From the IMG/VR virus record IMGVR_UViG_3300011337_000358: 64,000 nucleotides of DNA; one strand, written 5' to 3'. The translations under genes and the position numbers were made by a program. Positions 1 to 57,795 of this stretch are shown in pieces (within the stretch, counting starts at the first letter, position 1; each line of letters opens with the position of its first letter). The notes beneath the pieces were generated by a model. The model saw only the letters and a program-made list of their open reading frames with translations. It ran no database searches and had not been told where the DNA came from. This stretch comes from a virus (Duplodnaviria; Heunggongvirae; Uroviricota; Caudoviricetes).

Positions 1-1
1 G

Positions 2-955: not shown

Positions 956-964
956 AGGACAATA

Positions 965-1405
965 ATGTTATCAGATAATCTAAAAGTACTTTTAGCTAGT
1001 ACACAAAGTTTTGCTATTAAAACACAAAACTTTCATTGGAATGTTGAGGGGAGTAATTTTCCACAGTATCATGCATTTTTTGATACGTTATACGGTGATG
1101 TAAGTGCTACTATCGATCCTATCGCTGAATATATCAGAATATTAGGTGCTTACACACCCGGCAGTTTACAACGTTATGCTGAACTAAGTATCATTCAAGA
1201 CCAAATCAAAATCCCACGTGCTCAACTAATGTTTGCTGAATCACTACAAGATTGTGAAAAAATGAGTGAATTAGTCGTTGCTATGTTTGACGAAGCAACA
1301 AACGAACGTCAGCAAGGCATTGCTAATTACATGGCTGAACTACAAGACCTATACGGTAAGAAAGCATGGTTCATTCGTTCTACATTGAAAACAGAACGTG
1401 AGTAA
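965..1405 (+). CDS. dps: Dps-like ferritin (DNA-binding protein from starved cells) homolog
   Basis: 'QNFHWNVEGSNF' matches the Dps signature 'HNFHWNVKGPNF'. Size (~146 aa) and the downstream 'ELSIIQD' helix pattern fit the ferritin-like fold. Confidence 0.75.
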   Translation: MLSDNLKVLLASTQSFAIKTQNFHWNVEGSNFPQYHAFFDTLYGDVSATIDPIAEYIRILGAYTPGSLQRYAELSIIQDQIKIPRAQLMFAESLQDCEKMSELVVAMFDEATNERQQGIANYMAELQDLYGKKAWFIRSTLKTERE

Positions 1406-2675
1406 ATTAGAATTTACCCAGAAAGAATGGGAAAAGATAGAAAATAACGGGACTTATTGTCCCGGTTTATTTAACAGCAAATACATAGAAACTGACGGTG
1501 GACTGAGAGCATGTTGTGTTCAAGATTTAAAAGGTGAACATTATACAAATACAGAATCCTATAACACCACTTCGTTAAAACAAGCCAGACAAAATTCATT
1601 ATCAGGGATTAAAGATTCCAGTTGCGCTAGATGTTGGGAAAATGAATCATTAAACACCAGATCATATAGACAAGGTCTAGTAGAGTCTGCTATTCACTGG
1701 AAAAGTAAAATCAAAGATAATATAAATGTTGACTATTCCATCACAGAACCCACCATAGACTACTTAGACATTAGATTTGATAATATCTGTAATTTAAGAT
1801 GTAGATATTGCAGTACTATTTTTAGTTCTAGTTGGAGACACGAAACTGAGTTACTAGAAAAAGAATTACCAATATTTAAATATATAAAAAGAAGATCAGT
1901 AGATACAAAAATATTGAATAGTGTAACCGATATTGACACGATATTAGCTGACCTTAGAACAGTTAAAAAAATATTTTTTGCGGGTGGCGAGCCATTAGTA
2001 AACGATAAACATTATGAAGTGTTAGAATATCTAATAGATAATAATAGAACCAACATTGAAATAACGTATAATACTAATTTTACAAACATTAAAAAAGTTA
2101 TTCCTTATTGGAAAAAGTTTTCAAACATACACGTGGGTGCAAGTTTAGATGCAAATTATAAAAGAGGAGAATACATTCGTAAAAATCTCGTATGGGACCA
2201 GATTGTAGAAAATAGAAAATTAATGATTGCCGAAGTTCCTCATGTTCAATTTGAAATAAATGCGTCAATGAGTATATTGAATGCGTATAATGTAGTAGAT
2301 TTTCATAAAGAATGGATTAATGATAAATTAATTGGACCTTTTGATTTAACTGCATGGAATTTTGTATCTAAACCTGAACATTATGATATTAGGAATTTAC
2401 CTGACCATCATAAGATTAAATTAAAAGAAATATATCAAACTCATATTGATTGGTTAAACTCCCTCACATCAGGCAATGATATTAAGTTTAAAAGTAAAAA
2501 TGATTCTAGTTTTGCTATTCAATCATATCAAGGTATAATTAATAGGTTAAATTTAAGTAGAAATTCATCTTTTGACAAATTTTGGGAATTTGACAAATGG
2601 TTAGATAATAATAGAGATGAAAACTTTTTTGATGTGTTTCCTGAGTATGAGGACTTTGCTAGATATTTTAGCTAA
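1398..2675 (+). CDS. Radical SAM enzyme with an additional N-terminal Cys cluster; substrate unknown
   Basis: 'DIRFDNICNLRCRYCS' is a canonical CxxxCxxC radical-SAM motif. An N-terminal 'YCPG…ACCVQ…SCARCW' extra Cys cluster is present. GTG start overlaps the dps stop. Confidence 0.7.
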   Translation: MSKLEFTQKEWEKIENNGTYCPGLFNSKYIETDGGLRACCVQDLKGEHYTNTESYNTTSLKQARQNSLSGIKDSSCARCWENESLNTRSYRQGLVESAIHWKSKIKDNINVDYSITEPTIDYLDIRFDNICNLRCRYCSTIFSSSWRHETELLEKELPIFKYIKRRSVDTKILNSVTDIDTILADLRTVKKIFFAGGEPLVNDKHYEVLEYLIDNNRTNIEITYNTNFTNIKKVIPYWKKFSNIHVGASLDANYKRGEYIRKNLVWDQIVENRKLMIAEVPHVQFEINASMSILNAYNVVDFHKEWINDKLIGPFDLTAWNFVSKPEHYDIRNLPDHHKIKLKEIYQTHIDWLNSLTSGNDIKFKSKNDSSFAIQSYQGIINRLNLSRNSSFDKFWEFDKWLDNNRDENFFDVFPEYEDFARYFS

Positions 2676-2704
2676 ATATTATTATAAGAACAATAGAGAG
2701 TAAC

Positions 2705-3142
2705 ATGAAAAAAATTATAACAACAATACTATTGGCATTAGCCACTGTAACATATGCACAGAAAACACCTCAAGGTGTTACATACGATGCAAACATCATT
2801 AAAGTAAGTGACGGTGACACTATTGTTATTGCCGCACCTTTTTTACCAGCTCCATTAAAGCCACAGTTAGCAGTTAGAATATTTGGTGTTGACACCCCTG
2901 AAAAAGGATTCAGAGCTAAATGTGAATCAGAAAATCAACGTGGTTTAGCCGCTAGCGAGTTTACTAAGAAACTCGTAGGTGCTAGTCAGAAGCGTCAAGT
3001 GATATTATATGATTGGGATAAGTTTGGCGGCCGTGTCTTGGGTGACATTATATTAGACGGCAAAAGCCTACGACAACAATTGATTGCTAATGGCTTTGCC
3101 CGTGAGTATTTTGGTGAAGCCAAGCAATCTTGGTGTAATTAA
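2705..3142 (+). CDS. Secreted staphylococcal-nuclease (SNase/thermonuclease)-like nuclease with signal peptide
   Basis: N-terminal signal peptide 'MKKIITTILLALATVTYA'. SNase motifs 'VSDGDTIVI' and 'RIFGVDTPE' are present. A C-terminal Cys pair is present. Confidence 0.7.
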   Translation: MKKIITTILLALATVTYAQKTPQGVTYDANIIKVSDGDTIVIAAPFLPAPLKPQLAVRIFGVDTPEKGFRAKCESENQRGLAASEFTKKLVGASQKRQVILYDWDKFGGRVLGDIILDGKSLRQQLIANGFAREYFGEAKQSWCN

Positions 3143-3867
3143 TTCTTAGTATAAACAAAGTATAATCTATCGTTATTGTCTTTCTTAAAGGTATCTAACT
3201 TTAGATTGTATTTCTCAGCAAACTCATTTACAACTTCAAAGCTCCAAGGGAAGATTTCTACATAAGGTCCATTTTTGTGAGGAATTCCTGGATTGGCTCG
3301 TAGATAAAATTTTCCACCTACCTTTAGCAAACTAACACAGTGTTCAAATCGTGTTTCAATCTCATCTTTGCTATTGAAGTTAATTGAACCAAGAGCCAGA
3401 ATTACATCGTGTGATTCTGGTTTTACTTTGTACTCTAATATATCAACTTCATAATCAGCTTGATTATTGTATGGATCAATGCCAATCAGATTCTGAATGC
3501 GACCCTTGAATGGGTGATATCCGCAACCAACATCAAGTACTTTTTCTGGGTTTAGTTTGTTAACTTCATCAGCTAGTTCCCAACCAGTGTGTTCATAGTC
3601 ACCTGTGCGTGGTTTCCAAATCTCACTAAAAAAACGTAAGATATAACGTTCACTTAAGTCATGTACAATTTCTTTTAATGTACCCACATAGTCGCAGGGT
3701 AGACTTAATTCAGCTTCCACCGCGTTTTTAAACTTGCTATATCGTGCAGGAGTCCAGGGTAAGTCTTGGACAATAGTGTTTTCATCAATAGAAATTTTGG
3801 AATACTTAGGTAAATTAAACGCAAGTTCTAAATTTTCCTTGACTAACTTAAAAATTTTTGTGTTCAT
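3139..3867 (-). CDS. Class I SAM-dependent methyltransferase (no DNA-MTase DPPY/NPPY motif, so probably a small-molecule or RNA methyltransferase)
   Basis: Motif I 'VLDVGCGYHPF' followed by 'LIGIDP'. Convergent with the nuclease gene. Confidence 0.65.
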   Translation of the reverse strand: MNTKIFKLVKENLELAFNLPKYSKISIDENTIVQDLPWTPARYSKFKNAVEAELSLPCDYVGTLKEIVHDLSERYILRFFSEIWKPRTGDYEHTGWELADEVNKLNPEKVLDVGCGYHPFKGRIQNLIGIDPYNNQADYEVDILEYKVKPESHDVILALGSINFNSKDEIETRFEHCVSLLKVGGKFYLRANPGIPHKNGPYVEIFPWSFEVVNEFAEKYNLKLDTFKKDNNDRLYFVYTKN

Positions 3868-3947
3868 AGTAATTTTTTCTATATTTTGTAAATTTTTATG
3901 CCAAATGGAATAAATATATGTTCATCATATTTATTATCGGAGGACAG

Positions 3948-4907
3948 ATGAGAAAACTTTTAGTATTATTAGCATTTATACCGTTAGTTGCTTTTGCTTG
4001 GCAACCAACAAAACCTGTAACAGTTATATTCCCAAATGGCCCGGGAGCAGGAAATGAAATATCATTTCGTATTGTAGCAGAGATTGTAGAAAAACAAACT
4101 GGTGCAAAATTTGTACCTGAATATAGGCCGGGAGCTGATGGCAATATAGCTATCAATCACTTTGTAACAGTTCCTACTGATGGGCACACTATCAGTGTTC
4201 CAGCATGTCAGTCAAATTGGGTCACCCCTGAAGTGTGGTATCCAAAGGTAATCAAGTATAACCCAATGGATTTAGAACCCATTGCTAATATTGCACGTAG
4301 TCCATTAGCATTCTGGGCGCATCCTAGCAGTAAGATTAATACTCCCGAAGAACTAGTAGCCGCTATTCGCAAAAAAGAGCGCCCTATTACAATAGCAATA
4401 GGTGGCGGCGGTCATAAGTTAGCAGTTGAATATCTTGCTGCCAAACTAAATGTACCGGGCGGTGATCGAATAGAAACAGCTATGTATAAAGGTCCAGCAC
4501 AAGCGTTATTAGATGTAATGGGAGGTCACGTTGAATTTGGAGTGACCCCGGTTGCTGTTGGATACCCTCACGTACAAACAGGAAAACTAAAGTTAATTGG
4601 TATTGCTGATACTAGACCATTGCCTGGATTAGAAACAGCACCATTGATGAATAAGGCAGCACCTGGATTAAGCATACATGGTTGCTGGAATATAGTTCTA
4701 CCTCCCAATACCCCGCAGGATATACAAAAATGGTATGCTGAACACTTTGTTCCTGCAATACGTAGCGCGGAAGCAGGCGCTAAATTCAAAGAAAACATGA
4801 TGTACATTACACCCGAAGAACATAGCCCAGCAGGTGTTCGTGCTAGTATGTCGAGACTACAGCAAGTTTGGCAACCGATTGCTAGAAGAATAGATCCTAA
4901 TAAATGA
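3948..4907 (+). CDS. Periplasmic TctC/Bug-family (tripartite tricarboxylate transporter substrate-binding) protein homolog
   Basis: Signal peptide 'MRKLLVLLAFIPLVAFA'. 'YRPGADGNIA' and 'PTDGHTISV' match Bug/TctC 'RPGAGG…PDGYTL'. RBS GGAGGA precedes the ATG at 3948. Confidence 0.65.
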   Translation: MRKLLVLLAFIPLVAFAWQPTKPVTVIFPNGPGAGNEISFRIVAEIVEKQTGAKFVPEYRPGADGNIAINHFVTVPTDGHTISVPACQSNWVTPEVWYPKVIKYNPMDLEPIANIARSPLAFWAHPSSKINTPEELVAAIRKKERPITIAIGGGGHKLAVEYLAAKLNVPGGDRIETAMYKGPAQALLDVMGGHVEFGVTPVAVGYPHVQTGKLKLIGIADTRPLPGLETAPLMNKAAPGLSIHGCWNIVLPPNTPQDIQKWYAEHFVPAIRSAEAGAKFKENMMYITPEEHSPAGVRASMSRLQQVWQPIARRIDPNK

Positions 4908-5479
4908 AAATAGGTTTATCAATGGAGATGACCCGCAAGTTGCGTGATACGTGGCATGCGGCTATCAATTACGAATGGTATGACTTTTTATCAGAGCATG
5001 ATACTGTTCCTTTATCCTGTCATGGAAAAGTTCCGCAGACAGATGAGTTTGACTTAATCATATTGGCAGGTGGTAATGACATGCACGGCATTAAAACATG
5101 GCGTGACAATCATTATCCAATACGTGACCACTATGAGCATAGTTTGATTCAACAATGTTTGTTAACTAACACCCCTGTTGCTGGCATATGCAGAGGAGCT
5201 CATTTTATCAATCATGTTATGGGTGGCACACATAAGTTAATGGATCACCCATACGACAATGTTAAAGTTCAATTGCCTCAGTTTGAAGTAACTTGCCATC
5301 ACACAATTCAACTTGATACATTAGCTCCTGGCTTTGAAGTGTTACAACAAGATAAAAATGGTATTGTTGAATTAGCAGTAAATAAATCACAACGTATGTT
5401 AGGTATTGGTTGGCATCCAGAACGTGAAGTTAACAAACATACTAGACAATACATTTTAGATTTGATTAAGGACTTATGA
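4904..5479 (+). CDS. Class I glutamine amidotransferase-like / peptidase C26 (PuuD-type) protein
   Basis: Nucleophile elbow 'GICRGAHF' (GATase1 'G-x-C-x-G'). 'GIGWHPE' matches the His-containing 'QFHPE' block. Confidence 0.6.
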   Translation: MKIGLSMEMTRKLRDTWHAAINYEWYDFLSEHDTVPLSCHGKVPQTDEFDLIILAGGNDMHGIKTWRDNHYPIRDHYEHSLIQQCLLTNTPVAGICRGAHFINHVMGGTHKLMDHPYDNVKVQLPQFEVTCHHTIQLDTLAPGFEVLQQDKNGIVELAVNKSQRMLGIGWHPEREVNKHTRQYILDLIKDL

Positions 5480-6096
5480 AATACATATTTGTAGCAGGTG
5501 CACCGGGCAGTAAGTGGAGTAGTGTGGTAAAGAACATTTACTATAGCCCTAGTGTTGACCAATCAGACTATAGTGATGATAGAACATATTATCACGATGC
5601 CAGTGGTAAGTTGGAGTTGATGCATCTAGGTGCATACTATGATCCTGGTATGGAGTTTGGTAAATTGTTTCACAGACTACCTATGTATGACAAAGAAACA
5701 TTAGAACGTGACTTTGATGAAGCATTTACTGGTGAAGGTGTTCGTATTATTAAGTCACACGTGTTTAGTAATCACATTGACTATATCAAAGAAACATGGC
5801 CTGAATGTCCATTAGTTCTGGTGCATCGTCCCGATGACGCATGTTTAGGATGGTGGGTGAAGTGCGGGCATTTCAACATCACATACCCTGACTATAGTGA
5901 ATATTATCAGAACTTGAAAGTAATGGCTGAAAAGATTAAAGAACAGAATCAGGGTATTATCAAAGCAACATATAAGTATCCAGGTCGAGCACCATTAACT
6001 AATCACATGCTGTGTAAGATGCTAAATATAGAACTACCACCGAGTGAGTATGAACAAAATTACGGTGTATCAAACATAAGGGTAACAGTAATATGA
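5476..6096 (+). CDS. Hypothetical protein with a degenerate P-loop-like N-terminus ('VAGAPGSKWSS')
   Basis: ORF with ATGA overlap to its neighbours. No confident motif. Confidence 0.5.
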   Translation: MKYIFVAGAPGSKWSSVVKNIYYSPSVDQSDYSDDRTYYHDASGKLELMHLGAYYDPGMEFGKLFHRLPMYDKETLERDFDEAFTGEGVRIIKSHVFSNHIDYIKETWPECPLVLVHRPDDACLGWWVKCGHFNITYPDYSEYYQNLKVMAEKIKEQNQGIIKATYKYPGRAPLTNHMLCKMLNIELPPSEYEQNYGVSNIRVTVI

Positions 6097-6779
6097 TAAG
6101 CAGTTGGGAACAAAGTAAGAAAAAAAGTAATTATCATTTTGATAATTTCAAAAATGATTTACAAGTTGACAAAGTAACTAAGTTGGGTAAGATAGTTGCA
6201 GACTACAGTGAGGATGTTAAACATGCAATAGAATCTTCAAAGCCAGCAACATGGCGTACACGTGGTGCAGTGGGTAAAACAAGACCTGAAGAAGAATTAG
6301 CCGCAGAAGACTATGATTTGGAACAATTTGGTTATGGTAAAGATTATCAAATCACTCACTTAAATTGGGAAATAACTCCTAACTTGAAAAAGATTAGTGA
6401 TTTGTTCGGTCTATCAGATTGCATGGAACGTATACATGTTCAAAAGCCCGGTGAAGTTTGGAATCTGCATTTAGATAAATTAGAGAAGTGGGCACCCGAT
6501 TCACCTTGGACAGTCATGCGTGTGCAAGTAGCATTGACTGATTGGGAGCAAGGTCATTTCTGGAGTTATGGTAATTACAATCATCAGCAATGGCATGCAG
6601 GCGATGTGACAACATTTGACTGGCATAATTTACCACATTGTACTGCAAATGCAGGACATAACCCTAGAGTCACGTTTCAATTAACTGGTGTTATTACTGA
6701 AAAAACTACAGAGTTTTTAAGTAGATTAAAGAGATTTGATAATTATACCTTGAATTTGTCAGAGAATTCTTGGTTCTGA
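6093..6779 (+). CDS. Hypothetical His/Trp-rich protein (possible cupin-like metal site)
   Basis: ORF that follows the overlap-coupling pattern. No confident motif. Confidence 0.5.
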   Translation: MISSWEQSKKKSNYHFDNFKNDLQVDKVTKLGKIVADYSEDVKHAIESSKPATWRTRGAVGKTRPEEELAAEDYDLEQFGYGKDYQITHLNWEITPNLKKISDLFGLSDCMERIHVQKPGEVWNLHLDKLEKWAPDSPWTVMRVQVALTDWEQGHFWSYGNYNHQQWHAGDVTTFDWHNLPHCTANAGHNPRVTFQLTGVITEKTTEFLSRLKRFDNYTLNLSENSWF

Positions 6780-6871
6780 ACACACCTTAGGACCGGTACT
6801 TGTTACCGCGGTGTAGCCGGCTGCTGGCTTGACGTATGAATTCGCTACTCAGAAGTCTAAAGTGAGCTTTA
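6780..6871 (+). other. Anomalous GC-rich structured intergenic element
   Basis: ~55% GC in a ~38% GC genome. Hairpin CGGTA-CTTGT-TACCG. Palindrome AGCCGGCT. Contains 'TTACCGCGG', 'CTGCTGGC' and 'TACTTGTTAC', which resemble conserved 16S rRNA primer-site sequences. Confidence 0.3.
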
Positions 6872-7141
6872 ATGATAAATAGTATACAAAGGACATTTAT
6901 TATGAAAGAACATATCTACACATCATCCAAAGGAGAGAGTTTTTTATCATGGGATGATTGGGCACTCCAAACACTAAACGAAAGTGATTTGAGTGTTTAT
7001 CTTAGCCCCCAAGTAGAAGGTTCAACATTATCTGCTGATAAATTGGCTTTATATGCACGTTGGGTAGACGAAGAACAAATATTAACACACGTTGTTAAAG
7101 AAGATGATGTTATAATACAACAATCAAATGCACTCAAGTAA
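6872..7141 (+). CDS. Hypothetical small protein
   Basis: ORF; an alternative start 'MKEHIY' at 6902 is possible. Confidence 0.4.
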   Translation: MINSIQRTFIMKEHIYTSSKGESFLSWDDWALQTLNESDLSVYLSPQVEGSTLSADKLALYARWVDEEQILTHVVKEDDVIIQQSNALK

Positions 7142-7700
7142 TTTTATTACAGAATCTGCCGTAGATGAGTTAGCAAAAAAACTACCCTCATTGACTAAAC
7201 ACGACTATGATACCATTGATACATTAATGAGAAGTATTGCCAGTAGACATAGCATGAGTGGTAATGCATTACATGATTTGTTTGTAAAAAAATATAAAAG
7301 AACACCCGATAACTGGATTAAACATAAATTAGACGAAGGTGATGATTCAGATTTGCAACAAGAAGTTGATAAATTCTGCGATTGGGCATGTAAACGATTG
7401 CATATAAAATCTAAACCTGAAATTGAACTCAGTATGGATACTGAAGAAGCACAAAATAATCATCATACAGGTGGTCATCAAATGGGCGCTGATAGTATTT
7501 GGGTATATGTAAATAATCGTAACCTAGTTGATATACTACGCACAGTATTTCATGAATTGGTTCATGTGCGCCAAGGTGAATTAGATATGATTAAGCCGGG
7601 TGATAGTTACCCAGGTAGCCCAATTGAAGCAATGGCAGATATGCTTGCGGGCAAATACATCAAAATTTATGGTGAACAGAACCATCATATCTTTCAATAA
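7128..7700 (+). CDS. Hypothetical HExxH zinc-metallopeptidase-like protein
   Basis: 'VFHELVHVRQGE' HExxH motif. Confidence 0.45.
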   Translation: MHSSNFITESAVDELAKKLPSLTKHDYDTIDTLMRSIASRHSMSGNALHDLFVKKYKRTPDNWIKHKLDEGDDSDLQQEVDKFCDWACKRLHIKSKPEIELSMDTEEAQNNHHTGGHQMGADSIWVYVNNRNLVDILRTVFHELVHVRQGELDMIKPGDSYPGSPIEAMADMLAGKYIKIYGEQNHHIFQ

Positions 7701-7726
7701 TTGATTATTTGTGCTATAATGCACAG

Positions 7727-8323
7727 ATGATTAAGATTACAGTTCCATTACCCAAACAAATTACTGTTGCATGTAGCGGCGGTGTTGATAGTATGGCTGT
7801 AGTTGACTTTCTAAGTCGCAAACACGATGTAACTATTGCCCATTTTAATCATAGAACACAAAACGGTGAACGTGCCGCCCAATTTGTTTCTGGGTATTGT
7901 GGTGATAATAATATTCCTATGCTATACGGATCACCTCGCAGTGAACGCGGAACAAAAGAATCAATGGAAGAATATTGGCGCAGAGAACGATATGAATTCC
8001 TAAGCGAATTAGGACCGGTCATCACTTGTCATCATCTGGATGACTGTGTTGAGACATATGTTTGGTCTAGTTTACATGGTACAGCCAAAGTTATCCCACT
8101 CACTCGCAAAAATGTATTGCGCCCATTTTTAACTACACGTAAGAGTGAATTTGTTCGATGGTGTGAACAACATAAAGTTCCTTGGATTGAGGACGAATCA
8201 AACAAAGATACCAAATACACAAGAAATTACATTCGCAACGAAATGATGCCACATATATTGAAAGTCAATCCGGGCATTCATACTTTGGTCAAGAAGATTG
8301 TAGAAGGTAAGCAAAATACTTGA
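7727..8323 (+). CDS. tilS: PP-loop ATP pyrophosphatase; matches TilS (tRNA(Ile)-lysidine synthetase) catalytic domain better than QueC
   Basis: 'ACSGGVDSMAV' PP-loop. 'AHFNHR' matches the TilS 'HxNHxLR' block. 'CHHLDDCVETYVW' matches TilS 'HHLDDQAET'. 'WIEDESNKDTKYTRNYIRN' matches TilS 'W.EDESN.D..Y.RN.IR'. The QueC C-terminal CxxC…C zinc cluster is absent. An extended -10 'TGCTATAAT' lies at 7712-7720. Confidence 0.7.
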   Translation: MIKITVPLPKQITVACSGGVDSMAVVDFLSRKHDVTIAHFNHRTQNGERAAQFVSGYCGDNNIPMLYGSPRSERGTKESMEEYWRRERYEFLSELGPVITCHHLDDCVETYVWSSLHGTAKVIPLTRKNVLRPFLTTRKSEFVRWCEQHKVPWIEDESNKDTKYTRNYIRNEMMPHILKVNPGIHTLVKKIVEGKQNT

Positions 8324-8371: not shown

Positions 8372-8638
8372 ATGTCAGATTATAACAGAACCTTTAACGG
8401 TGAGGCAAAAATTAAACTAACTCAACTAGTAAATGAGGGCATGACAGTCCTACATGAGATTGATACATTGAATGGTGGATTGAATGACACTATTAAAGCA
8501 GTCGCAGAAGAACTTGAAATCAAGGCTTCTACTTTGAAGAAAGCAATTAAAATTGCTCACAAAGCAAGTCTCGGTCAGACTAACAAAGACCACGATGAAC
8601 TCAACACTATCTTGGAAACTGTGGGCAAAACACTTTGA
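8372..8638 (+). CDS. Hypothetical small protein
   Basis: ORF preceded by TTGACT-17-TACAAT (8320-8348) and RBS AAGGAGA. Confidence 0.55.
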   Translation: MSDYNRTFNGEAKIKLTQLVNEGMTVLHEIDTLNGGLNDTIKAVAEELEIKASTLKKAIKIAHKASLGQTNKDHDELNTILETVGKTL

Positions 8639-11343
8639 GTTACGTTGACGCTATTCATAGTAGGGATGAAGACCGTATCTACGTGGTAGAACGTGATAAG
8701 AATGGCGTACGCCAGTATAAAGAATATCCTACTAACTATGTGTTGTATTACCCTGACCACAAGGGTAAACATCGTAGTATCTATGGCAATCCAGTTAGTC
8801 GTTTCAGTACACGCAAACGCACCGAGTTTGAAAAAGAAAAGCGCATCCACTCAGGTAAAACATTGTTTGAATCTGATATCAATGTAGTCTTTCGTTGTCT
8901 AAGCGAAAACTATCTTAAAGTTGATGCACCTAAACTTCATACTTGCTTCTTTGACATTGAAGTGGACTTTGATCCAGTCAAAGGATTCAGTCCTACAAGT
9001 GATCCATTCAATCCCGTAACTGCTATCAGTTGTTACTTAGATTGGCTTGACCAATGTATTACATTAGTTATTGCTCCTAAGCACATGACCACTGAGACTG
9101 CGTGGGAAATAGTTAGAGAGTTTCCTAATTGTTTTCTTTGCAATAACGAAAAGGAAATGTTTGATACATTCTTTGAATTAATTGAAGATGCTGATGTATT
9201 AACTGGCTGGAACTCAGAAGGATACGATATTCCATATATGGTCAATCGTGTTACTAGAGTAATGAGTAAAGATGATACACGCAAGTTTTGCTTGATGGGT
9301 CAGCTTCCTAAACCTCGTGAGTACGAACGATTTGGTAAGAAAGAAATGACTTACGATTTAGTCGGTAGAATTCACCTTGACTATTTACAACTTTACAAAA
9401 AGTATAACTATGAATCTCGACATTCATATAAGTTAGATGCTATCGGTGAGATGGAAGTTGGTGAAAACAAAACACAATATGAAGGTACTCTTGACCAGTT
9501 GTATAACAAAGACTTTAAAAAGTTCATTGAATACAATAGGCAAGATACAATGTTGTTGGTGAAGATTCACAACAAACTTAAGTTTTTAGAATTAGCTAAT
9601 CAACTTGCACACGAAAATACAGTACTGCTTCCAACAGTAATGGGTTCAGTGGCAATGATTGAGATGGCAATTTTTAATGAGGCCCACGAACGTGGGTTAG
9701 TTGTCCCAGATAAAAAACGAAAGGTTGAAAATGCAGAAGAAATCCAGCAGGCAGCAGGTGCCTATGTTGCTACGCCCAAAAGAGGTATGCACGAATGGGT
9801 CGGCGCCGTCGACATTAACTCGCTCTATCCCTCGGTTATTCGTGCCGTCAACATGGGAGGAGAAACGATTGTCGCACAAGTCAGACAAACATTAACCGAT
9901 CACTACATGAAAGAAAAGGGTCGTAATCTTGCTGAAGGAAAGAAATATTTCAAAGAAGGTGATGAAGATGTGACTGGTGCTATATTATGGGAGAACTTGT
10001 TCGGCTCATTAGAATATACTGCTATTATGAACCAAGAGCGTGGCACAATGCTTACTGTAGATTACGAAGATGGTCGTAGTGAAGAAATGAGTGCGGCAGA
10101 AGTATGGAAGATGATTTTTGATAGTCACAAACCCTGGATGCTCTCTGCAAACGGAACAATCTTCACATATGAAAAAGAAGGTGTTGTTCCTGGTCTACTC
10201 ACACGCTGGTATACAGAACGTAAAGTAATTCAAAAACAAGCAAAAGAAGCATATGGCACAGATATGTATGATTATTACGACAAGCGACAACTAGTTCGTA
10301 AGATTTTATTGAACTCCGCGTATGGTGCATTGTTGAACGAACATTGTCGTTTCTATGATAAGCGCATTGGTCAAAGTGTTACATTGAGTGGGCGTCAAAT
10401 CGTGCGACACATGATGAGTACAATCAATGAATCAGTAACTGGTGATTATAATCACGAAGGTCCTGCAATTGTTTATGGTGATACTGACTCATGTTATTTC
10501 ACAGCATATCCTATTCTTAAACAGCAAATTGAGAGTGGCGAACTAACTTGGGATAAAGAAACTTGTATCGGATTGTATGATGGCATCGCTGACCAAGCTA
10601 ATGAATCGTTCCCTGCATTTATGGAACGTGCATTTCATGCACCTCGCAAGAATGGTGAGATTATTAAAGCTGGTCGTGAACTGATCGGTGATCGTAGTAT
10701 CTTTATCACTAAGAAACGTTATGCTATTAACATCTTTGACAAAGAGGGCAAGCGTAAAGATAAAGACGGTGCTCTTGGTGATATCAAAGCTATGGGTCTT
10801 GACTTGAAACGTGCTGATACACCTAAGTATGTACAAGAATTCTTAATGGATGTGCTTGAGATGGTTCTTCAACGAGGTAAAAATCGTGAGGATGTAATTG
10901 AACGTGTTAAGGAATTTAAACGTGTTATGGTAGCACAGGACAGCTGGACTAAAGGTTCTCCTAAATCAGTTAATAATTTAACTAAGCATACACAAATATT
11001 TGACAAAACAGGTAAGTGTGGTGTTGGTCACGCACGTGCCGCAATCAATTGGAACTATCTACGCAGAATGAATGGGGACAACTACAGTCAACAAATTGTT
11101 GATGGTATGAAAATTATTGTATGTAAACTTAAATCTAACCCATTAGGCTTTAATAGTATTGCTTATCCGGTTGATGAATTACGATTGCCTACATGGTTCA
11201 AAGAATTACCATTTGACGATAGTGCAATGGAATCAACATTGGTTGATGAAAAGATTGACAACTTGCTTGGTGTTCTTAATTGGGACATTAAGAGTAACAT
11301 TGATGTTAAATCTACGTTTGATGACTTATTCAGTTTCGGTTAA
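8635..11343 (+). CDS. Family B DNA polymerase, T4 gp43-like
   Basis: Exonuclease I motif 'FFDIEVDF' and polymerase motif C 'VYGDTDS'. The N-terminus 'RIYVVERDKNGVRQYKEYPTNY' parallels T4 gp43 'NIVERYIDENGKERTREVEYLPTMF'. Length is 902 aa (T4 gp43 is 898 aa). TTG start overlaps the upstream stop. Confidence 0.95.
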   Translation: MSYVDAIHSRDEDRIYVVERDKNGVRQYKEYPTNYVLYYPDHKGKHRSIYGNPVSRFSTRKRTEFEKEKRIHSGKTLFESDINVVFRCLSENYLKVDAPKLHTCFFDIEVDFDPVKGFSPTSDPFNPVTAISCYLDWLDQCITLVIAPKHMTTETAWEIVREFPNCFLCNNEKEMFDTFFELIEDADVLTGWNSEGYDIPYMVNRVTRVMSKDDTRKFCLMGQLPKPREYERFGKKEMTYDLVGRIHLDYLQLYKKYNYESRHSYKLDAIGEMEVGENKTQYEGTLDQLYNKDFKKFIEYNRQDTMLLVKIHNKLKFLELANQLAHENTVLLPTVMGSVAMIEMAIFNEAHERGLVVPDKKRKVENAEEIQQAAGAYVATPKRGMHEWVGAVDINSLYPSVIRAVNMGGETIVAQVRQTLTDHYMKEKGRNLAEGKKYFKEGDEDVTGAILWENLFGSLEYTAIMNQERGTMLTVDYEDGRSEEMSAAEVWKMIFDSHKPWMLSANGTIFTYEKEGVVPGLLTRWYTERKVIQKQAKEAYGTDMYDYYDKRQLVRKILLNSAYGALLNEHCRFYDKRIGQSVTLSGRQIVRHMMSTINESVTGDYNHEGPAIVYGDTDSCYFTAYPILKQQIESGELTWDKETCIGLYDGIADQANESFPAFMERAFHAPRKNGEIIKAGRELIGDRSIFITKKRYAINIFDKEGKRKDKDGALGDIKAMGLDLKRADTPKYVQEFLMDVLEMVLQRGKNREDVIERVKEFKRVMVAQDSWTKGSPKSVNNLTKHTQIFDKTGKCGVGHARAAINWNYLRRMNGDNYSQQIVDGMKIIVCKLKSNPLGFNSIAYPVDELRLPTWFKELPFDDSAMESTLVDEKIDNLLGVLNWDIKSNIDVKSTFDDLFSFG

Positions 11344-12153: not shown

Positions 12154-12542
12154 TAGACTATATACATGGTGGCGAGTATCTTAATGTTGTTAGTAACAAA
12201 GGTGCTCAGCCTTATATCAATATGAGTAGTACTCAGCCCATGATTGGTGCATTGTCTTATGACCATAGTAGTCAACATATGAAAGTATATGATGGTAATG
12301 GGTGGATGACTATTGGCGGTGGCAGTGCTACTGTCAATCTAGCACCAAATGCTATCAATATTTTAAAGTGGGCTGAACAGAAAATGCTAGAAGAAGCCGA
12401 GCGCAACAAATTAGCAGAAACAACCCCCGCTATTAGAGATTTGATGGACCAGATAAAAGAAAAAGAAGAACAGATAAAAATGGTCATGACTTTAATTAAA
12501 AGTACTGGTAATGATGCAATTAAACCCTCAATGGTACCCTAA
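12150..12542 (+). CDS. Hypothetical protein with C-terminal coiled coil
   Basis: ORF with overlap coupling. Confidence 0.5.
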   Translation: MIDYIHGGEYLNVVSNKGAQPYINMSSTQPMIGALSYDHSSQHMKVYDGNGWMTIGGGSATVNLAPNAINILKWAEQKMLEEAERNKLAETTPAIRDLMDQIKEKEEQIKMVMTLIKSTGNDAIKPSMVP

Positions 12543-14095
12543 TGGAACAAGATAATCTATCAGCAAAACAAAACCCAGAGTGGGCATTGTTCTTACCCGC
12601 AGTTAGTAGTTTTTATATTAGTGGTTTGGGTAAGCAACGTAAAGGTGAGGAGTACTTTGATAAGGCTCGTATCCCTACTCAGTTCAACGGTGATGTTGAG
12701 AAATTAAATTTCTTAAACAGTAGTGAAGGTCTCTATTATTATAAATGGGGCTTGTACAGTGCTGGTCACGCTAACTTAGATACTACTAAAGACGATGCTA
12801 GTGAATCAATCATTAGAGAACGTGAAGAAGGTACATTTATGTTGGGTGACAGTGGTGGATTTCAGATTCTTAAAGGTCAATGGCCAGCAGACTGGAAAGA
12901 TCCTAACTGCCCACGTGCTATGATTAAGCGTAAAGCTGTGTTGAATTGGATGGATACATATATGGATTATGGTATGTGTTTAGATATCCCAAGTCAATCA
13001 CTAACAACGTTTGGCATGAAAGATAAGAATGGTAATAGTCTGCATGGTATCAGTACTATTGAAGAAGCTATTACTGCCACTCACATTAACAACGAATACT
13101 TTATTAAGAATCGTAATGGGAAATGTAAGTTCTTAAATGTACTTCAAGGTCGTAATCATGGTCAGTCGGAAGACTGGTACAATGAAATGAAGAAGTACTG
13201 TGATCCAAACGTATATCCGGACAATCATTTCAATGGCTGGGCATTCGGTGGTCAGAACAAGATTGATGTACACTTGATGTTAACACGTATGGTTGATATT
13301 ATCCATGATGGATTGTTGGTAGAAGGTAAACATGATTTGATTCATTGTTTGGGTACAAGTATCTTAGAGTATGCGGTATTGTTTACTGATATTCAAAAAG
13401 CTATACGTAAATATCATAACTCAAAACTTCAGATTACATTTGACTGTGCTAGTCCATTTTATAGTGCGGCTAAAGGATTAGCATATTTCAATACTAACAT
13501 TGAGCATAATAAAAAATGGTCATACAGTATGGAAAAGACTGCTGAAAAGAAAAGTTATGCTAATGATACACGTAAATACCGTGATGCTGTGTTAGCAGAA
13601 GGCATCCATAAACTCTTTACAGATAGTCCAGTTACTGATAAACTACTACTTAAGGACATGTGTTATCGTGGTCAAGGGTTCATAGGACAACATGGTAAAG
13701 AAACTAAAACTAGTTGGGATACATTAAGTTACACATTGATTCAAAGTCATAATGTTTGGATGCATATGAATGCAGTTCAAGAGGCTAATCGTCAATATGA
13801 AACAGGTATTACTCCTAAAATGCTTATTCATAAATTTGAAGGTAGTAAGTTTTTTGGTGAAATAGTTGATGAAATTTTCTCAAAGAAAACTAAACAAGAA
13901 GCTATTGACTTGATTGATTATCATCGTAGTTATTGGATGCAATTTCAATCAGGTAGTCAGGGTATTAGTGGTAAGCGTACAGTTAATGCTATGACAATGT
14001 TTGACCAATTATTTGAAGTAAATACAGATGAACCGGAAGTTGATGAAGTCATTGAGGACAGTGATGATGAAATTTTCAAAGTACTAGGAGAATAA
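12542..14095 (+). CDS. dpdA: DpdA-like tRNA-guanine transglycosylase (TGT) family protein; likely 7-deazaguanine DNA transglycosylase
   Basis: 'MLGDSGGFQILKG' is the TGT 'DSGGFQ' catalytic-Asp block. 'ITFDCASP' matches TGT 'MFDCV' (second catalytic Asp). No CxCxxC zinc site, as in phage/bacterial DpdA. Confidence 0.8.
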   Translation: MEQDNLSAKQNPEWALFLPAVSSFYISGLGKQRKGEEYFDKARIPTQFNGDVEKLNFLNSSEGLYYYKWGLYSAGHANLDTTKDDASESIIREREEGTFMLGDSGGFQILKGQWPADWKDPNCPRAMIKRKAVLNWMDTYMDYGMCLDIPSQSLTTFGMKDKNGNSLHGISTIEEAITATHINNEYFIKNRNGKCKFLNVLQGRNHGQSEDWYNEMKKYCDPNVYPDNHFNGWAFGGQNKIDVHLMLTRMVDIIHDGLLVEGKHDLIHCLGTSILEYAVLFTDIQKAIRKYHNSKLQITFDCASPFYSAAKGLAYFNTNIEHNKKWSYSMEKTAEKKSYANDTRKYRDAVLAEGIHKLFTDSPVTDKLLLKDMCYRGQGFIGQHGKETKTSWDTLSYTLIQSHNVWMHMNAVQEANRQYETGITPKMLIHKFEGSKFFGEIVDEIFSKKTKQEAIDLIDYHRSYWMQFQSGSQGISGKRTVNAMTMFDQLFEVNTDEPEVDEVIEDSDDEIFKVLGE

Positions 14096-14096
14096 T

Positions 14097-14306
14097 ATGC
14101 CATATAAAAGCCGTATTAAAACATTAGAAGAATCACATAGATTAGTAGAAAATCAACTTTTTCAATTAGAAAAATCAAATGGTGATCCTGAAAAAATTAA
14201 AAAGTTGAGAGAGGCTAAGGAAAAGTATTTCACTGAATTACGTGCAATGAATCGGGCTCAATGGGATCATGACCATGAAACTGTAGATTTGAACGATGAC
14301 CGATGA
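14097..14306 (+). CDS. Hypothetical small coiled-coil protein
   Basis: ORF. Confidence 0.45.
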   Translation: MPYKSRIKTLEESHRLVENQLFQLEKSNGDPEKIKKLREAKEKYFTELRAMNRAQWDHDHETVDLNDDR

Positions 14307-14871
14307 TATTAAATTAATTCCCAATATACTAAAACCAGAGGTAGAGTGGGATATTAATAAACGAGTTATTGTTATTGATAACGCAATTAGCCCGGATATG
14401 TGTGATAGTATTATTAATTTTGCAACTGATAGAGTAGCAAAAGGAGTAAACAAATATCCACATGTATTTGGTATTAGTTTTCATTCATGTCTACTTCAGT
14501 TAGAACATGAAGTTCATCAATTGTTGCAACCAATATGGCAACAATCAATTAATCAATTGGGATTTGATATTGATTTCGTTGAACCATATGAAGTTAAAAA
14601 GTATACTTCTAAAGATTTCTTTGGTAAACACGTAGATAATTACTACAGTTTGACCAAAGACATAGACAGAAAGATAACAATGAGTGTACAATTGACTGAC
14701 AAATCAGAATATACTGGTGGTGAGCTATTAGTGTTAGGTAGAGACATGGGTGCTAAGTCTAAAGGTAGCGTCACTGTGTTTCCTAGCATTTTTTCACATG
14801 AAGTAAAACCCATTACTTTTGGTACACGATGGTCATTAATAAGTTGGGCTTGGGGCCCTTATTGGAAATAA
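14296..14871 (+). CDS. 2OG-Fe(II) oxygenase (prolyl-4-hydroxylase-like fold)
   Basis: HxD 'GKHVDNYY', a second His in 'FSHEVKPI' and a 2OG-binding Arg in 'TRWSLISW'. 'GGELLV' is typical. Confidence 0.65.
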   Translation: MTDDIKLIPNILKPEVEWDINKRVIVIDNAISPDMCDSIINFATDRVAKGVNKYPHVFGISFHSCLLQLEHEVHQLLQPIWQQSINQLGFDIDFVEPYEVKKYTSKDFFGKHVDNYYSLTKDIDRKITMSVQLTDKSEYTGGELLVLGRDMGAKSKGSVTVFPSIFSHEVKPITFGTRWSLISWAWGPYWK

Positions 14872-14872: not shown

Positions 14873-15325
14873 ATGGAACAACATATTCAAGCAGAAACAG
14901 AAAAACGAGTACGCATTAAGCATCATGCAAAGCGTATGATTTTCGTAACATTTCAAAAAGAGGGTATTCATATGTACCCGGCGGCGGCAACAGATCCAGC
15001 ACTCGCAACGGGTGATGAATATGATGTTCGCTTTTTAGGAACTCCACATCGTCACATCTTTCACTTTAACGTGGCGATTGAAGTATTTCACAACGACAGG
15101 GATATTGAATTCATTCAATTTAAACGCTGGTTAGAGAATCTCTATAAAGGCGGTACACTTGAATTGAATTACAAGAGTTGTGAAATGATTAGTGATGACC
15201 TCTATGAAGTTATTGCTACTCGCTATCCCGATCGTAACATTGAGATTACCGTCAGTGAAGATGGTGAGAACGGTGCTACGATTTATTACAACACAATTAG
15301 ACCTTATCTTTCAACCGCTATTTAA
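14873..15325 (+). CDS. Hypothetical protein
   Basis: ORF. Confidence 0.5.
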   Translation: MEQHIQAETEKRVRIKHHAKRMIFVTFQKEGIHMYPAAATDPALATGDEYDVRFLGTPHRHIFHFNVAIEVFHNDRDIEFIQFKRWLENLYKGGTLELNYKSCEMISDDLYEVIATRYPDRNIEITVSEDGENGATIYYNTIRPYLSTAI

Positions 15326-15337: not shown

Positions 15338-15544
15338 ATGGCAAAACCAACATTTCAAACTAACCCACGTGTTCATCAAATATTTGAGGACTTGGAAAAG
15401 TATCTTGAATTCTGTCAAGAGTATGGATATAAGTATAATGAGGCAGACCTCTATGACCAACGCAGTTATGTGTTTCGTCAGTTTGCAAAATGCATGACAG
15501 GTAAGCCTGCAAAAAATCAATGGACAGAACACTCACGTCCATGA
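15338..15544 (+). CDS. Hypothetical small protein
   Basis: ORF with RBS. Confidence 0.45.
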   Translation: MAKPTFQTNPRVHQIFEDLEKYLEFCQEYGYKYNEADLYDQRSYVFRQFAKCMTGKPAKNQWTEHSRP

Positions 15545-57213: not shown

Positions 57214-57261
57214 CCTAAATATTATAATTTATTGCGTATTAGTAGTATAATAAATACATAC

Positions 57262-57313: not shown

Positions 57314-57319
57314 AAACAA

Positions 57320-57772: not shown

Positions 57773-57795
57773 TATAATAGAATTTCAATAAATAA

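What the first reader, a model, noticed from the sequence alone, without database searches (positions are those of the whole stretch)
7727..8323. Phage-encoded TilS-like lysidine synthetase catalytic domain (not QueC)
The PP-loop protein next to a deazaguanine pathway would naively be called QueC. However, the 'HFNHR', 'CHHLDDCVETYVW' and 'WIEDESNKDTKYTRNYIRN' blocks match TilS (HxNHxLR, HHLDDQAET, W.EDESN.D..Y.RN.IR), and the QueC zinc-binding Cys cluster is absent. At 204 aa it carries only the catalytic domain and no anticodon-recognition domains. A phage TilS could lysidinylate a phage or host tRNA-Ile(CAU) to boost AUA decoding in an AT-rich genome. It could instead be an ATP-dependent amidotransferase-like activity co-opted for base modification, possibly partnered with the orphan GATase 2.2 kb upstream.
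Basis: partly seen in the sequence, partly recalled or inferred. Interest (0 to 1): 0.6.

Follow-up and report, generated by a model that had tools for sequence, protein, structure and literature searches.

The report
Phage minimal tRNA-Ile lysidine synthetase (TilS)
This jumbo-phage gene encodes only the catalytic domain of TilS, the enzyme that lets a CAU-anticodon tRNA read the isoleucine codon AUA, and it is not the queuosine-pathway enzyme QueC; similar phage genes are already annotated, so it is a sound but fairly ordinary find.

Summary
Window 7727-8323 (+) encodes a 198-aa PP-loop protein that passes NCBIfam's curated TilS N-domain model (126 bits, cutoff 93.6). It gives no QueC Pfam hit even at E<=10. 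Its model folds like Aquifex and E. coli TilS, with QueC ranked 47th. It keeps every residue shared by the short family and bacterial TilS, but lacks both tRNA-binding C-terminal domains.

It belongs to a large, uncharacterised catalytic-domain-only family, about 180 clusters at 50% identity, nearly all near 200 aa. PA5oct/MIJ3 "tilS" is a member. In 50 dereplicated viral loci the nearest tRNA is a CAU tRNA in 22 of 46 (13.7% expected, p=3e-8). Thirteen loci have it within 200 nt on the same strand. A 114-kb contig related to the window carries both the gene and an Ile2-like tRNA(CAU).

The rival reading, a QueC substitute partnered with the GATase, is not supported. The window encodes DpdL, the known QueC-independent 7-deazaguanine route. 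The GATase occurs in 2 of 40 relatives. None of 80 diverse loci has Que genes.

Best explanation: the enzyme lysidinylates a phage tRNA-Ile2 so that AUA codons can be read. This is a new member of a known kind. How it recognises tRNA without C-terminal domains is open.

The parts
7727..8323 (+). ORF of 198 aa: TilS N-terminal (catalytic, PP-loop ATP-pyrophosphatase) domain only, with no CTD1 or CTD2
   Evidence: PF01171 122.9 bits. TIGR02432 126.3 bits against cutoff 93.6. It aligns to A. aeolicus TilS residues 25-227. The AF2 model has pLDDT 81, and the top Foldseek hits are TilS 2e21/1wy5/2e89 at E about 1e-13. E. coli TilS used as a control shows PF09179 and PF11734, which are absent here. 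dN/dS is 0.11.
7775..7792 (+). PP-loop ATP-binding motif S17-G-G-V-D-S22
   Evidence: Read directly from the sequence. These positions are 93-96% conserved in 136 short-family sequences and identical in E. coli (S20-S25) and A. aeolicus (S32-S37) TilS. It is the only such motif in six frames of the window.
8030..8056 (+). H102-H-L-D-D-C-V-E-T110 block (TilS HHLDDxxET motif)
   Evidence: H102, L104, D106 and E109 are 98-99% conserved in the short family. They match A. aeolicus H133, L135, D137 and E140.
8183..8236 (+). W153-IEDESNKDTKYTRNYI-R170 block (TilS W.EDxSN...RNxIR motif)
   Evidence: D156, N159, R166 and R170 are 95-99% conserved. They match A. aeolicus D191, N194, R201 and R205 and E. 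coli D177, N180, R187 and R191.
7128..7700 (+). Context only: conserved upstream neighbour, a 190-aa HExxH-containing protein of unknown function
   Evidence: Present in 59 of 71 close relatives directly upstream of the TilS gene. It matches phrog_10346, function unknown. No link to TilS function is shown.
8372..11343 (+). Context only: conserved downstream neighbours, an 88-aa protein and family-B DNA polymerase
   Evidence: Present in 78/78 and 73/78 close relatives. The polymerase is 46-49% identical to those of Sinorhizobium phage Phosso and Agrobacterium phage Atu_ph07, and 46% to PA5oct's in a local tblastn.

Best explanation
The gene encodes a stand-alone TilS catalytic domain, that is, a minimal tRNA(Ile2) lysidine synthetase of a roughly 350-kb uncultured jumbo phage distantly related to Pseudomonas phage PA5oct.

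Inferred mechanism, taken from the established TilS reaction: the PP-loop binds ATP and adenylates C2 of cytidine 34 in a tRNA with anticodon CAU. The epsilon-amino group of L-lysine then displaces AMP to give lysidine. This switches the tRNA from AUG/Met to AUA/Ile.

The most likely substrate is a phage-encoded Ile2-like tRNA(CAU), which lies in a tRNA cluster outside this window. Enzyme and tRNA together would give the AT-rich phage a host-independent supply of AUA decoding.

Shown here: family membership of the catalytic domain, absence of the C-terminal domains, purifying selection, genomic linkage of the family to tRNA(CAU) genes, and substantial AUA use in the phage. Inferred, not shown: catalytic activity, lysine as the nucleophile, and which tRNA is modified.
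For: 1. Sequence. TIGR02432 is above its curated cutoff. PF01171 is the only meaningful Pfam hit. The best solved-structure relatives are three TilS proteins.

2. Fold. The top five Foldseek PDB hits are TilS, with TMq 0.75-0.79. QueC ranks 47th at E=3e-3.

3. Residues. Every column conserved at 80% or more in 136 short-family members that aligns to bacterial TilS catalytic-domain residues is identical or conservative in E. coli and A. aeolicus TilS.

4. Context across the family. All 80 diverse IMG/VR loci carry 188-263-aa ORFs. After dereplication to 50 clusters, 46 have a tRNA within 10 kb and 33 have a tRNA(CAU). In 13 the tRNA(CAU) is within 200 nt and on the same strand. The nearest tRNA is CAU in 22 of 46, against 13.7% expected (p=2.8e-8). 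In several loci the adjacent CAU tRNA is the only tRNA in 20 kb. In L187/L215 the tRNA(CAU) ends where the ORF starts.

5. Own lineage. JGI contig 3300032291 Ga0335297_1217068 (114,406 bp) has window-type synteny with a 202-aa PF01171 ORF between the 192-aa ORF and the 88-aa/DNA-polymerase genes. It is about 80% identical to the window at the nucleotide level. The IMG/VR contig from the same sample with the same length has a 16-tRNA cluster at 99-114 kb. That cluster includes an Ile2-like tRNA(CAU) and an initiator-like one.

6. PA5oct. Its TilS homolog is 40% identical. It has three CAU tRNAs. Two share the whole anticodon stem-loop with an E. coli tRNA that PGAP annotates as tRNA-Ile(CAT), and the third is initiator-like.

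7. Codon demand. AUA makes up 20.8% of Ile codons (14.3 per 1000) in the window. In PA5oct it is 55% (43.8 per 1000), against 0.9 per 1000 in its host P. aeruginosa (PMC12514573, Table 1).

8. LR756502. Its homolog sits between two tRNA clusters.

9. Selection. dN/dS is 0.11.
Against: No tRNA lies in the window or within 10 kb of the gene in 44 close relatives. In this lineage, enzyme and putative substrate are about 106 kb apart on the one contig that links them.

[quoted passage not shown] Deleting CTD2 from a type I enzyme strongly lowers activity (PMC11947777). Activity of a bare catalytic domain is therefore unproven.

Calling the phage CAU tRNAs 'Ile2' rests on three things: similarity of the anticodon stem-loop to E. 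coli tRNA-Ile2, the absence of initiator features, and genomic context. No isotype-specific classifier was run.

The LR756502 neighbourhood has a tRNA-Ile(UAU) and no CAU tRNA within 20 kb.

The host is unknown, so a codon-usage mismatch cannot be shown for this phage.
Confidence: 0.8

Rival explanations
1. QueC substitute. The PP-loop protein, perhaps using ammonia from the GATase at 4904-5479, would convert 7-carboxy-7-deazaguanine to an amide or nitrile in the phage's deazaguanine DNA-modification pathway.
For: The window and PA5oct both encode FolE, QueD, QueE and a putative DpdA-like protein, but no QueC. The TilS-like ORF is the only PP-loop ORF in the window and in the 281 kb of PA5oct examined. 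PA5oct DNA resists G-containing restriction sites (PMC12191111).
Against: Window 14873-15325 is a DpdL homolog with the LxxxHRHxF motif (LGTPHRHIF). It is 57% identical to the Acidovorax phage ACP17 protein and 35% to the phiST protein. DpdL marks the known route used by phages that have DpdA, FolE, QueD and QueE but not QueC (PMC10516641, section 16), so no QueC-like step is needed. ACP17, phiST and Phosso have DpdL but gave no short-TilS hit. None of 80 diverse short-TilS loci has FolE, QueD, QueE, DpdL or GATase homologs. The GATase is present in 2 of 40 close relatives. There is no QueC HMM hit, no Zn-Cys cluster, and QueC ranks 47th by fold.
Confidence: 0.03
2. Relaxed-specificity enzyme used for host takeover. 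Without the discriminating C-terminal domains it would also modify host tRNA-Met(CAU), or other C34 tRNAs, and so reprogram or cripple host decoding.
For: CTD1 and CTD2 are absent. Removing CTD2 from a type I TilS relaxes acceptor-stem discrimination (PMC11947777).
Against: The tight same-strand pairing with one particular tRNA(CAU) gene points to a dedicated partner. The delta-CTD2 enzyme still rejected tRNA-Met (PMC11947777). Converting tRNA-Met would also damage phage translation. There is no direct evidence.
Confidence: 0.07
3. A TilS-derived enzyme with a different chemistry or target. It might use another amine nucleophile, modify another cytidine, or act on DNA cytosine.
For: The lysine-binding determinants could not be checked residue by residue here. 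The phage clearly invests in nucleic-acid modification. Sulfur-transfer PP-loop enzymes (TtuA) are the next-best structural neighbours.
Against: All residues shared with bacterial TilS are retained. The Fe-S cysteines required by TtcA/TtuA are absent, and TtcA scores 18.6 bits against a cutoff of 272. The family-wide context is tRNA(CAU), not DNA-modification genes.
Confidence: 0.07
4. A decaying or non-catalytic remnant of a captured bacterial tilS gene.
For: It is truncated relative to every characterised TilS.
Against: dN/dS is 0.11. Catalytic motifs are invariant among 33 close homologs. Length is uniform at about 200 aa across about 180 clusters at 50% identity. The position is conserved in 77 relatives.
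Confidence: 0.02

Closest known systems
Putative TilS of Pseudomonas jumbo phages PA5oct / MIJ3 (Wroclawvirus; MIJ3 gp263, PMC6892783)
   Same: The architecture is the same (203 aa, catalytic domain only) and identity is 40% over 97% of the query. The genome type is the same, with shared DNA polymerase, DpdA-like, DpdL, QueE and Clp blocks. PA5oct also co-encodes Ile2-like tRNA(CAU) genes.
   Different: In PA5oct the gene lies 6-10 kb downstream of the tRNA cluster. Here it abuts the DNA-polymerase module and the tRNAs are far away. Function is untested in both. The 2019 paper did not discuss the missing C-terminal domains.
Bacterial type II TilS (Aquifex aeolicus, PDB 1wy5/2e21/2e89; NTD + CTD1)
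   Same: It is the best sequence match (E=1.4e-19) and the best fold match (E about 1e-13, TMq 0.76-0.79). The PP-loop and the H63, R113, H133, D137, E140, R167, D191, N194, R201 and R205 equivalents are conserved.
   Different: The phage protein ends where the A. aeolicus N-domain ends (about residue 227 of 317). CTD1, which approaches the anticodon stem, is missing.
Bacterial type I TilS (E. coli MesJ/TilS, 432 aa; G. kaustophilus 3a2k)
   Same: The catalytic domain is homologous (E=3e-14 and 4e-12).
   Different: The phage protein lacks both PF09179 (CTD1) and PF11734 (CTD2), which the E. coli control shows at 66.5 and 88.5 bits. It scores 63.9 bits against the full-length equivalog cutoff of 606.
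Virus-encoded TilS reported elsewhere: 39 of 41 chloroviruses (bioRxiv 10.1101/2020.07.06.190819), some group PMP-A pelagimyophages (PMC7029224), Ralstonia phage RsoM2USA ORF84 (PMC8504454)
   Same: The proposed rationale is the same. An AT-rich virus needs more AUA decoding than its host supplies, and the gene co-occurs with viral tRNA clusters.
   Different: RsoM2USA ORF84 is 349 aa, so it keeps a C-terminal extension, and is only 27% identical. The architectures of the chlorovirus and pelagimyophage proteins were not examined here.
QueC (7-cyano-7-deazaguanine synthase, PF06508)
   Same: It belongs to the PP-loop ATP-pyrophosphatase superfamily, and a deazaguanine pathway is present in the same genome.
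   Different: There is no PF06508 hit at E<=10. The PHROG QueC-like model scores 19 bits on the PP-loop stretch only. There is no Zn-binding Cys cluster. The fold match ranks 47th.

Membership tests
TilS (tRNA-Ile lysidine synthetase), catalytic N-terminal domain | PP-loop SGGxDS ATP-binding motif | tested here: met
   S17-GGVD-S22 at 7775-7792. It is conserved in the short family and in E. coli and A. aeolicus TilS.
TilS (tRNA-Ile lysidine synthetase), catalytic N-terminal domain | Score above the curated cutoff of the equivalog-domain model TIGR02432 (lysidine_TilS_N) | tested here: met
   126.3 bits against cutoff 93.6, covering profile positions 2-189 of 189.
TilS (tRNA-Ile lysidine synthetase), catalytic N-terminal domain | TilS-type conserved blocks beyond the PP-loop (HxNH, HHLDDxxET, RPL/F, W.EDxSN, RNxIR) | tested here: met
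   H42, R88, H102, D106, E109, R132, P133, D156, N159, R166 and R170 are identical to A. aeolicus and E. coli TilS.
TilS (tRNA-Ile lysidine synthetase), catalytic N-terminal domain | TilS N-domain fold | tested here: met
   The AF2 model has pLDDT 81.2 and pTM 0.77. Foldseek ranks 1-5 are TilS structures, E from 8e-14 to 2e-11.
Full-length TilS, type I or type II as characterised in bacteria | CTD1 (PF09179, TilS substrate-binding domain) | tested here: not met
   No hit at E<=10, while the E. coli control scores 66.5 bits. The protein ends at the N-domain boundary. tblastn found no separate CTD-like ORF in the window, PA5oct or 160 loci, although that search has low sensitivity.
Full-length TilS, type I or type II as characterised in bacteria | CTD2 (PF11734, TilS_C) and the full-length equivalog score (NF007942) | tested here: not met
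   No PF11734 hit. NF007942 scores 63.9 bits against cutoff 606.
TilS (functional definition) | A cognate tRNA-Ile2 with anticodon CAU is available as substrate | tested here: inconclusive
   There is none in the window. An Ile2-like tRNA(CAU) is on the same 114-kb contig of a relative and in PA5oct. Family-wide adjacency to tRNA(CAU) is significant. Isotype (Ile2 versus elongator Met) was judged by similarity and context only.
TilS (functional definition) | ATP- and lysine-dependent formation of lysidine at C34 | not testable with these tools
   This needs an enzyme assay or mass spectrometry.
QueC (PF06508) | QueC HMM match and a C-terminal Zn-binding cysteine cluster | tested here: not met
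   No PF06508 hit at E<=10. The cysteines are at positions 16, 58, 101, 107 and 146, with no CxxC (sequence). Foldseek ranks QueC 2pg3 at 47, E=3e-3.
TtcA/TtuA tRNA thiolases | Family HMM above cutoff and Fe-S-binding CxxC motifs | tested here: not met
   TtcA NF007972 scores 18.6 bits against cutoff 272. There are no CxxC motifs. TtuA is only the second tier of fold matches.

The most novel reading that the evidence does not exclude
The bare catalytic domain has lost the discrimination that the C-terminal domains provide. During infection it would also lysidinylate host tRNA-Met(CAU), or it would use a nucleophile other than lysine. Either way the phage would actively rewrite host decoding rather than simply supplementing AUA reading. 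A milder and much more probable version, about 0.5-0.7, is that enzyme and co-encoded tRNA(CAU) form a natural self-contained orthogonal pair. Specificity would then reside in the catalytic domain and the co-evolved tRNA, defining a third TilS architecture with no appended domain.
Probability: 0.08. Interest if true: 0.75.

Novelty: new member of a known kind. Interest (0 to 1): 0.38.

Why it matters
Correct annotation matters here. A PP-loop gene in a genome with FolE, QueD and QueE is easily mislabelled QueC. That would wrongly predict a preQ0-type DNA modification. The phage instead has the DpdL (7-deazaguanine) route together with a separate translation gene.

Beyond annotation, recent TilS papers state that TilS enzymes carry at least one appended tRNA-recognition domain (PMC11947777, PMC12514573). 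The short phage family contradicts that picture. It comprises about 180 clusters at 50% identity and is frequently fused in an apparent operon with a tRNA(CAU) gene.

This gives enzymologists a natural minimal system. It can be used to ask how tRNA-Ile2 is told apart from tRNA-Met by the catalytic domain alone. It also offers compact enzyme-tRNA pairs for engineering AUA decoding.

Tried and rejected
1. Megablast of 5 kb around the gene against 50,697 phage records found nothing. The lineage has no cultured close relative.

2. tRNAs were sought in the window with ARAGORN and with Rfam at gathering threshold, and within 10 kb of the gene in 44 close relatives. None were found.

3. Walking off both ends of the window by exact-protein look-up gained only 3.4 kb on the right and nothing useful on the left.

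4. L104 was first taken as collinear with the window, which would have placed a tRNA cluster about 15 kb upstream of TilS. This was rejected. L298 is 99.9% identical to L104 and extends 6.8 kb further, yet shows no TilS or DNA polymerase. The shared methyltransferase-like, TctC-like, 206-aa and 228-aa genes therefore form a movable island. A physical link came instead from the 114-kb contig.

5. Classifying CAU tRNAs by 1:72 pairing and by the C29:G41 pair was abandoned. The ARAGORN 3' ends are inconsistent and the E. coli rule is not general.

6. The original TilS structure paper (Nakanishi 2005) could not be read. The experimentally essential residues are therefore not cited. Only conservation shared with E. 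coli and A. aeolicus TilS is used.

7. The sigma-70 promoter scan around the gene was at chance level.

8. The QueC-substitute hypothesis was taken seriously once PA5oct also turned out to lack QueC. It was rejected after DpdL was found.

9. The 517-aa DpdA candidate has no Pfam, PHROG or PDB sequence hit. Only a low-confidence model gave a weak TGT match.
Full report
**1. The observation**

Window 7727-8323 (+) is an ORF of 198 aa from its ATG. More than 100 homologs are 196-199 aa and begin MIK(I/L)TVPLP with an invariant first methionine, so the ATG is the real start.

- Pfam finds only PF01171 (PP-loop, 122.9 bits). It finds no QueC (PF06508) even at E<=10.
- NCBIfam's equivalog-domain model for the TilS N-terminal domain, TIGR02432, scores 126.3 bits against a curated cutoff of 93.6.
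- The only PHROG hit is a 19-bit match of the PP-loop stretch to a QueC-like family.
- Against solved structures, the three hits are all TilS: A. aeolicus at E=1.4e-19, E. coli MesJ and G. kaustophilus.
- An AlphaFold2 model (pLDDT 81, pTM 0.77) matches A. aeolicus and E. coli TilS best (E from 8e-14 to 2e-11, TMq 0.75-0.79). TtuA thiolases come next, and QueC ranks only 47th.

**2. What is missing**

The protein aligns to A. aeolicus TilS residues 25-227, which is the catalytic N-terminal domain, and then stops. E. coli TilS run as a control shows PF09179 (CTD1) and PF11734 (CTD2). Neither is found in the window protein, nor in its homologs from PA5oct, LR756502 or L187.

[quoted passage not shown] Type I has NTD+CTD1+CTD2. 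Type II, about 30% of enzymes, has NTD+CTD1. Deleting CTD2 leaves weak activity with relaxed acceptor-stem discrimination (PMC11947777, PMC12514573).

tblastn found no separate CTD-like ORF in the window, in PA5oct or in 160 related loci. That search is not sensitive.

**3. The family**

A word-indexed search found 2,397 homologs at E<=1e-10. The best 120 are all 195-203 aa and 72-88% identical, on contigs of up to 352-357 kb.

An exhaustive HMMER search of 1.84 billion cluster representatives found 180 clusters (50% identity) at E<=1e-30. Nearly all are 180-230 aa long. This is therefore a large family of catalytic-domain-only TilS-like proteins.

Columns conserved at 80% or more in 136 family members include the PP-loop and H42, E81, R85, R88, H102, L104, D106, E109, G118, R132, P133, D156, N159, R166 and R170. 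Almost all of these are identical in E. coli and A. aeolicus TilS. The exception is H102, which is Gln in E. coli.

Median dN/dS against 67 close relatives is 0.11.

**4. The genome**

The DNA polymerase is 46-49% identical to those of the jumbo phages Phosso and Atu_ph07 and about 44% to RaK2-like phages.

The best TilS matches in GenBank phages are two 635-642-kb uncultured phages at 45-46%. Next is the Pseudomonas PA5oct/MIJ3 group at 40%, where the gene is annotated tilS. The MIJ3 paper reported it as a putative TilS of unknown role (PMC6892783).

PA5oct shares gene order with the window. The shared order runs from an 88-aa gene through DNA polymerase, a 242-aa gene, a 130-aa gene, a 517/540-aa gene and DpdL to QueE. 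It also shares a ClpX-S21-Hsp20-ClpS-ClpP block.

In 80 close relatives the TilS gene keeps its place between a 190-aa HExxH protein (59 of 71) and the 88-aa gene plus polymerase (78 of 78 and 73 of 78). Everything further upstream is hypervariable.

**5. Is there a substrate?**

The window has no tRNA by ARAGORN or by Rfam. No tRNA lies within 10 kb of the gene in 44 relatives.

*PA5oct.* It has 12 tRNAs, three of them with anticodon CAU.
- Two share the full anticodon stem-loop GCGACTCATAATCGC with an E. coli tRNA that PGAP annotates as tRNA-Ile with anticodon CAT. They are 75-83% identical to it.
- The third is initiator-like.

*The window's lineage.* Searching IMG/VR for that stem-loop, and then for a 35-nt lineage-specific version of it, recovered tRNA clusters on relatives of the window (L104 and L299-L304).
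- One of these loci, L301, is the 99-114-kb end of IMGVR_UViG_3300032291_002057 (114,406 bp).
- JGI contig 3300032291 Ga0335297_1217068 comes from the same sample and has the same length.
- That JGI contig carries, at 5.6 kb, a 202-aa PF01171 ORF in exactly the window's gene order. It is about 80% identical to the window at the nucleotide level, and its TilS protein is 57% identical.
- So a relative encodes both the enzyme and an Ile2-like tRNA(CAU), plus an initiator-like one, about 106 kb apart.

An earlier idea was withdrawn. I had placed the tRNA cluster about 15 kb upstream of TilS on the basis of L104. L298, a 99.9%-identical extension of L104, shows that the shared genes are a movable island and not collinear sequence.

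**6. Family-wide context**

An alignment-based scan, seeded on a distant member, returned 80 diverse IMG/VR loci. All have ORFs of 188-263 aa. They were dereplicated at 70% identity into 50 clusters, with the following counts:

| Feature | Clusters |
|---|---|
| At least one tRNA within 10 kb | 46 of 50 |
| A tRNA(CAU) in the locus | 33 of 50 |
| tRNA(CAU) within 1 kb | 20 of 50 |
| tRNA(CAU) within 200 nt, always on the same strand | 13 of 50 |
| Nearest tRNA is CAU | 22 of 46 |

CAU tRNAs make up 13.7% of all tRNAs in these loci, so the last row gives a binomial p of 2.8e-8.

In several loci the adjacent CAU tRNA is the only tRNA in 20 kb. In L187/L215 the tRNA ends at the base where the 190-aa ORF starts. 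In LR756502 the gene sits between two tRNA clusters.

This is the strongest evidence that the family acts on a co-encoded tRNA(CAU).

**7. Codon demand**

AUA accounts for 20.8% of Ile codons (14.3 per 1000) in the window's ORFs. In PA5oct it is 55% (43.8 per 1000). In its host P. aeruginosa it is 0.9 per 1000, and the host TilS is comparatively inefficient (PMC12514573, Table 1). The window's host is unknown.

**8. The rival: a QueC substitute**

This deserved attention, for three reasons.
- The TilS-like ORF is the only PP-loop ORF in the window and in the 281 kb of PA5oct examined.
- Both phages have FolE, QueD and QueE but no QueC.
- PA5oct DNA resists restriction at G-containing sites (PMC12191111).

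However, window 14873-15325 carries the DpdL signature LxxxHRHxF (LGTPHRHIF). It matches the ACP17 protein at 57%, the phiST protein at 35% and the PA5oct protein at 57%. Cui et al. 2023 proposed DpdL as the CDG decarboxylase of phages that encode DpdA, FolE, QueD and QueE but not QueC, giving 7-deazaguanine in DNA (PMC10516641, section 16). The missing QueC is therefore expected.

Further points against the rival:
- Phages with DpdL (ACP17, phiST, Phosso) gave no short-TilS hit.
- None of the 80 diverse short-TilS loci has any Que, DpdL, DpdA-like or GATase homolog.
- The GATase at 4904-5479 occurs in only 2 of 40 close relatives.

The rival is not supported.

**9. Comparison with what is known, and novelty**

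Virus-encoded TilS has been noted before:
- PA5oct/MIJ3 (2019)
- some pelagimyophages (PMC7029224)
- 39 of 41 chloroviruses, with the same AUA rationale (bioRxiv 10.1101/2020.07.06.190819)
- RsoM2USA, as a 349-aa protein

The window gene is thus a new member of a known kind.

I did not find two things described in the papers I read. One is the size of the domain-less family. The other is its tight pairing with tRNA(CAU) genes. Both sit awkwardly with the statement that TilS always carries an appended recognition domain. That is a modestly interesting open question, not a new kind of system.

**10. Verdict**

- The most likely function is lysidinylation of a phage tRNA-Ile2(CAU) for AUA decoding (confidence 0.8).
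- Activity without C-terminal domains, lysine as the nucleophile, and the identity of the tRNA substrate remain inferred.

Noticed in passing
window 14873-15325 (+), with 12542-14095, 20305-20985, 22290-22772 and 24824-25672: There is a DpdL homolog carrying the LxxxHRHxF motif, plus FolE, QueD, QueE and a 517-aa ORF. That ORF's only significant structural match is tRNA-guanine transglycosylase (6yry, E=2e-4, from a low-confidence model of pLDDT 59). The set predicts a QueC-independent 7-deazaguanine (dDG) DNA modification. PA5oct has the same gene set, and its DNA modification is still chemically unidentified.
   Followed up: partly
window about 1-7100: This is a hypervariable island upstream of the conserved replication module. 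It contains ferritin/Dps (965-1405), a 425-aa radical SAM protein (1398-2675), SNase (2705-3142), a methyltransferase-like ORF (3139-3867, minus strand), a TctC-like solute-binding protein (3918-4907), a GATase/Peptidase_C26 (4904-5479, with a weak match to gamma-glutamyl-CDP-amidate hydrolase), and 206-aa and 228-aa ORFs. In other relatives (L104, L296, L298) part of the island sits next to the tRNA cluster instead.
   Followed up: partly
window 14296-14871 (+): A 2OG-Fe(II) oxygenase lies between the DpdA-like ORF and DpdL. It is present in only 5 of 28 relatives by the positional test, but it is also seen in L305. It might further modify the deazaguanine base or DNA.
   Followed up: no
window 15520-16293, 21742-22215, 22772-23395, 23397-23810 and 23807-24442: Several genes are interleaved with the Que genes: two cytidylyltransferase-like genes (one fused to a cupin), a class II aldolase, a GDSL hydrolase and a phrog_3704 'ferredoxin'-family protein. 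Their role is unknown. It could be sugar-nucleotide chemistry or further base chemistry.
   Followed up: no
window 55790-61797: A ClpX, ribosomal protein S21, Hsp20, ClpS, SprT-like and ClpP block has the same order as PA5oct 169-181 kb. L208 shows a weak ribosomal L12-like ORF just beyond the window's right end.
   Followed up: no
L212 (LR756502.1) 13502-13575: The 642-kb uncultured phage has a tRNA-Ile with anticodon UAU 6.5 kb upstream of its short TilS gene. No CAU tRNA lies within 20 kb. That genome may therefore use two different AUA-decoding strategies.
   Followed up: no
L305 5163-5771 compared with window 7727-8323: In a relative whose flanking genes are about 80% identical at the DNA level, the TilS protein is only 57% identical. 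This suggests allelic replacement or faster evolution of this gene at a fixed position.
   Followed up: no
window 7712-7726: An extended -10-like TGCTATAAT ends 6 nt before the TilS ATG. No Shine-Dalgarno sequence is visible. The promoter scan as a whole was at chance level.
   Followed up: partly
L001-L007 (PA5oct) 267558-268250; L104 125-469; L122; L299 and L301-L304: The Ile2-like tRNA(CAU) is repeatedly paired with a tRNA-Leu(UAA) as its immediate neighbour, in PA5oct and in the window's relatives. This is a conserved two-tRNA unit for the A-ending codons UUA and AUA.
   Followed up: no
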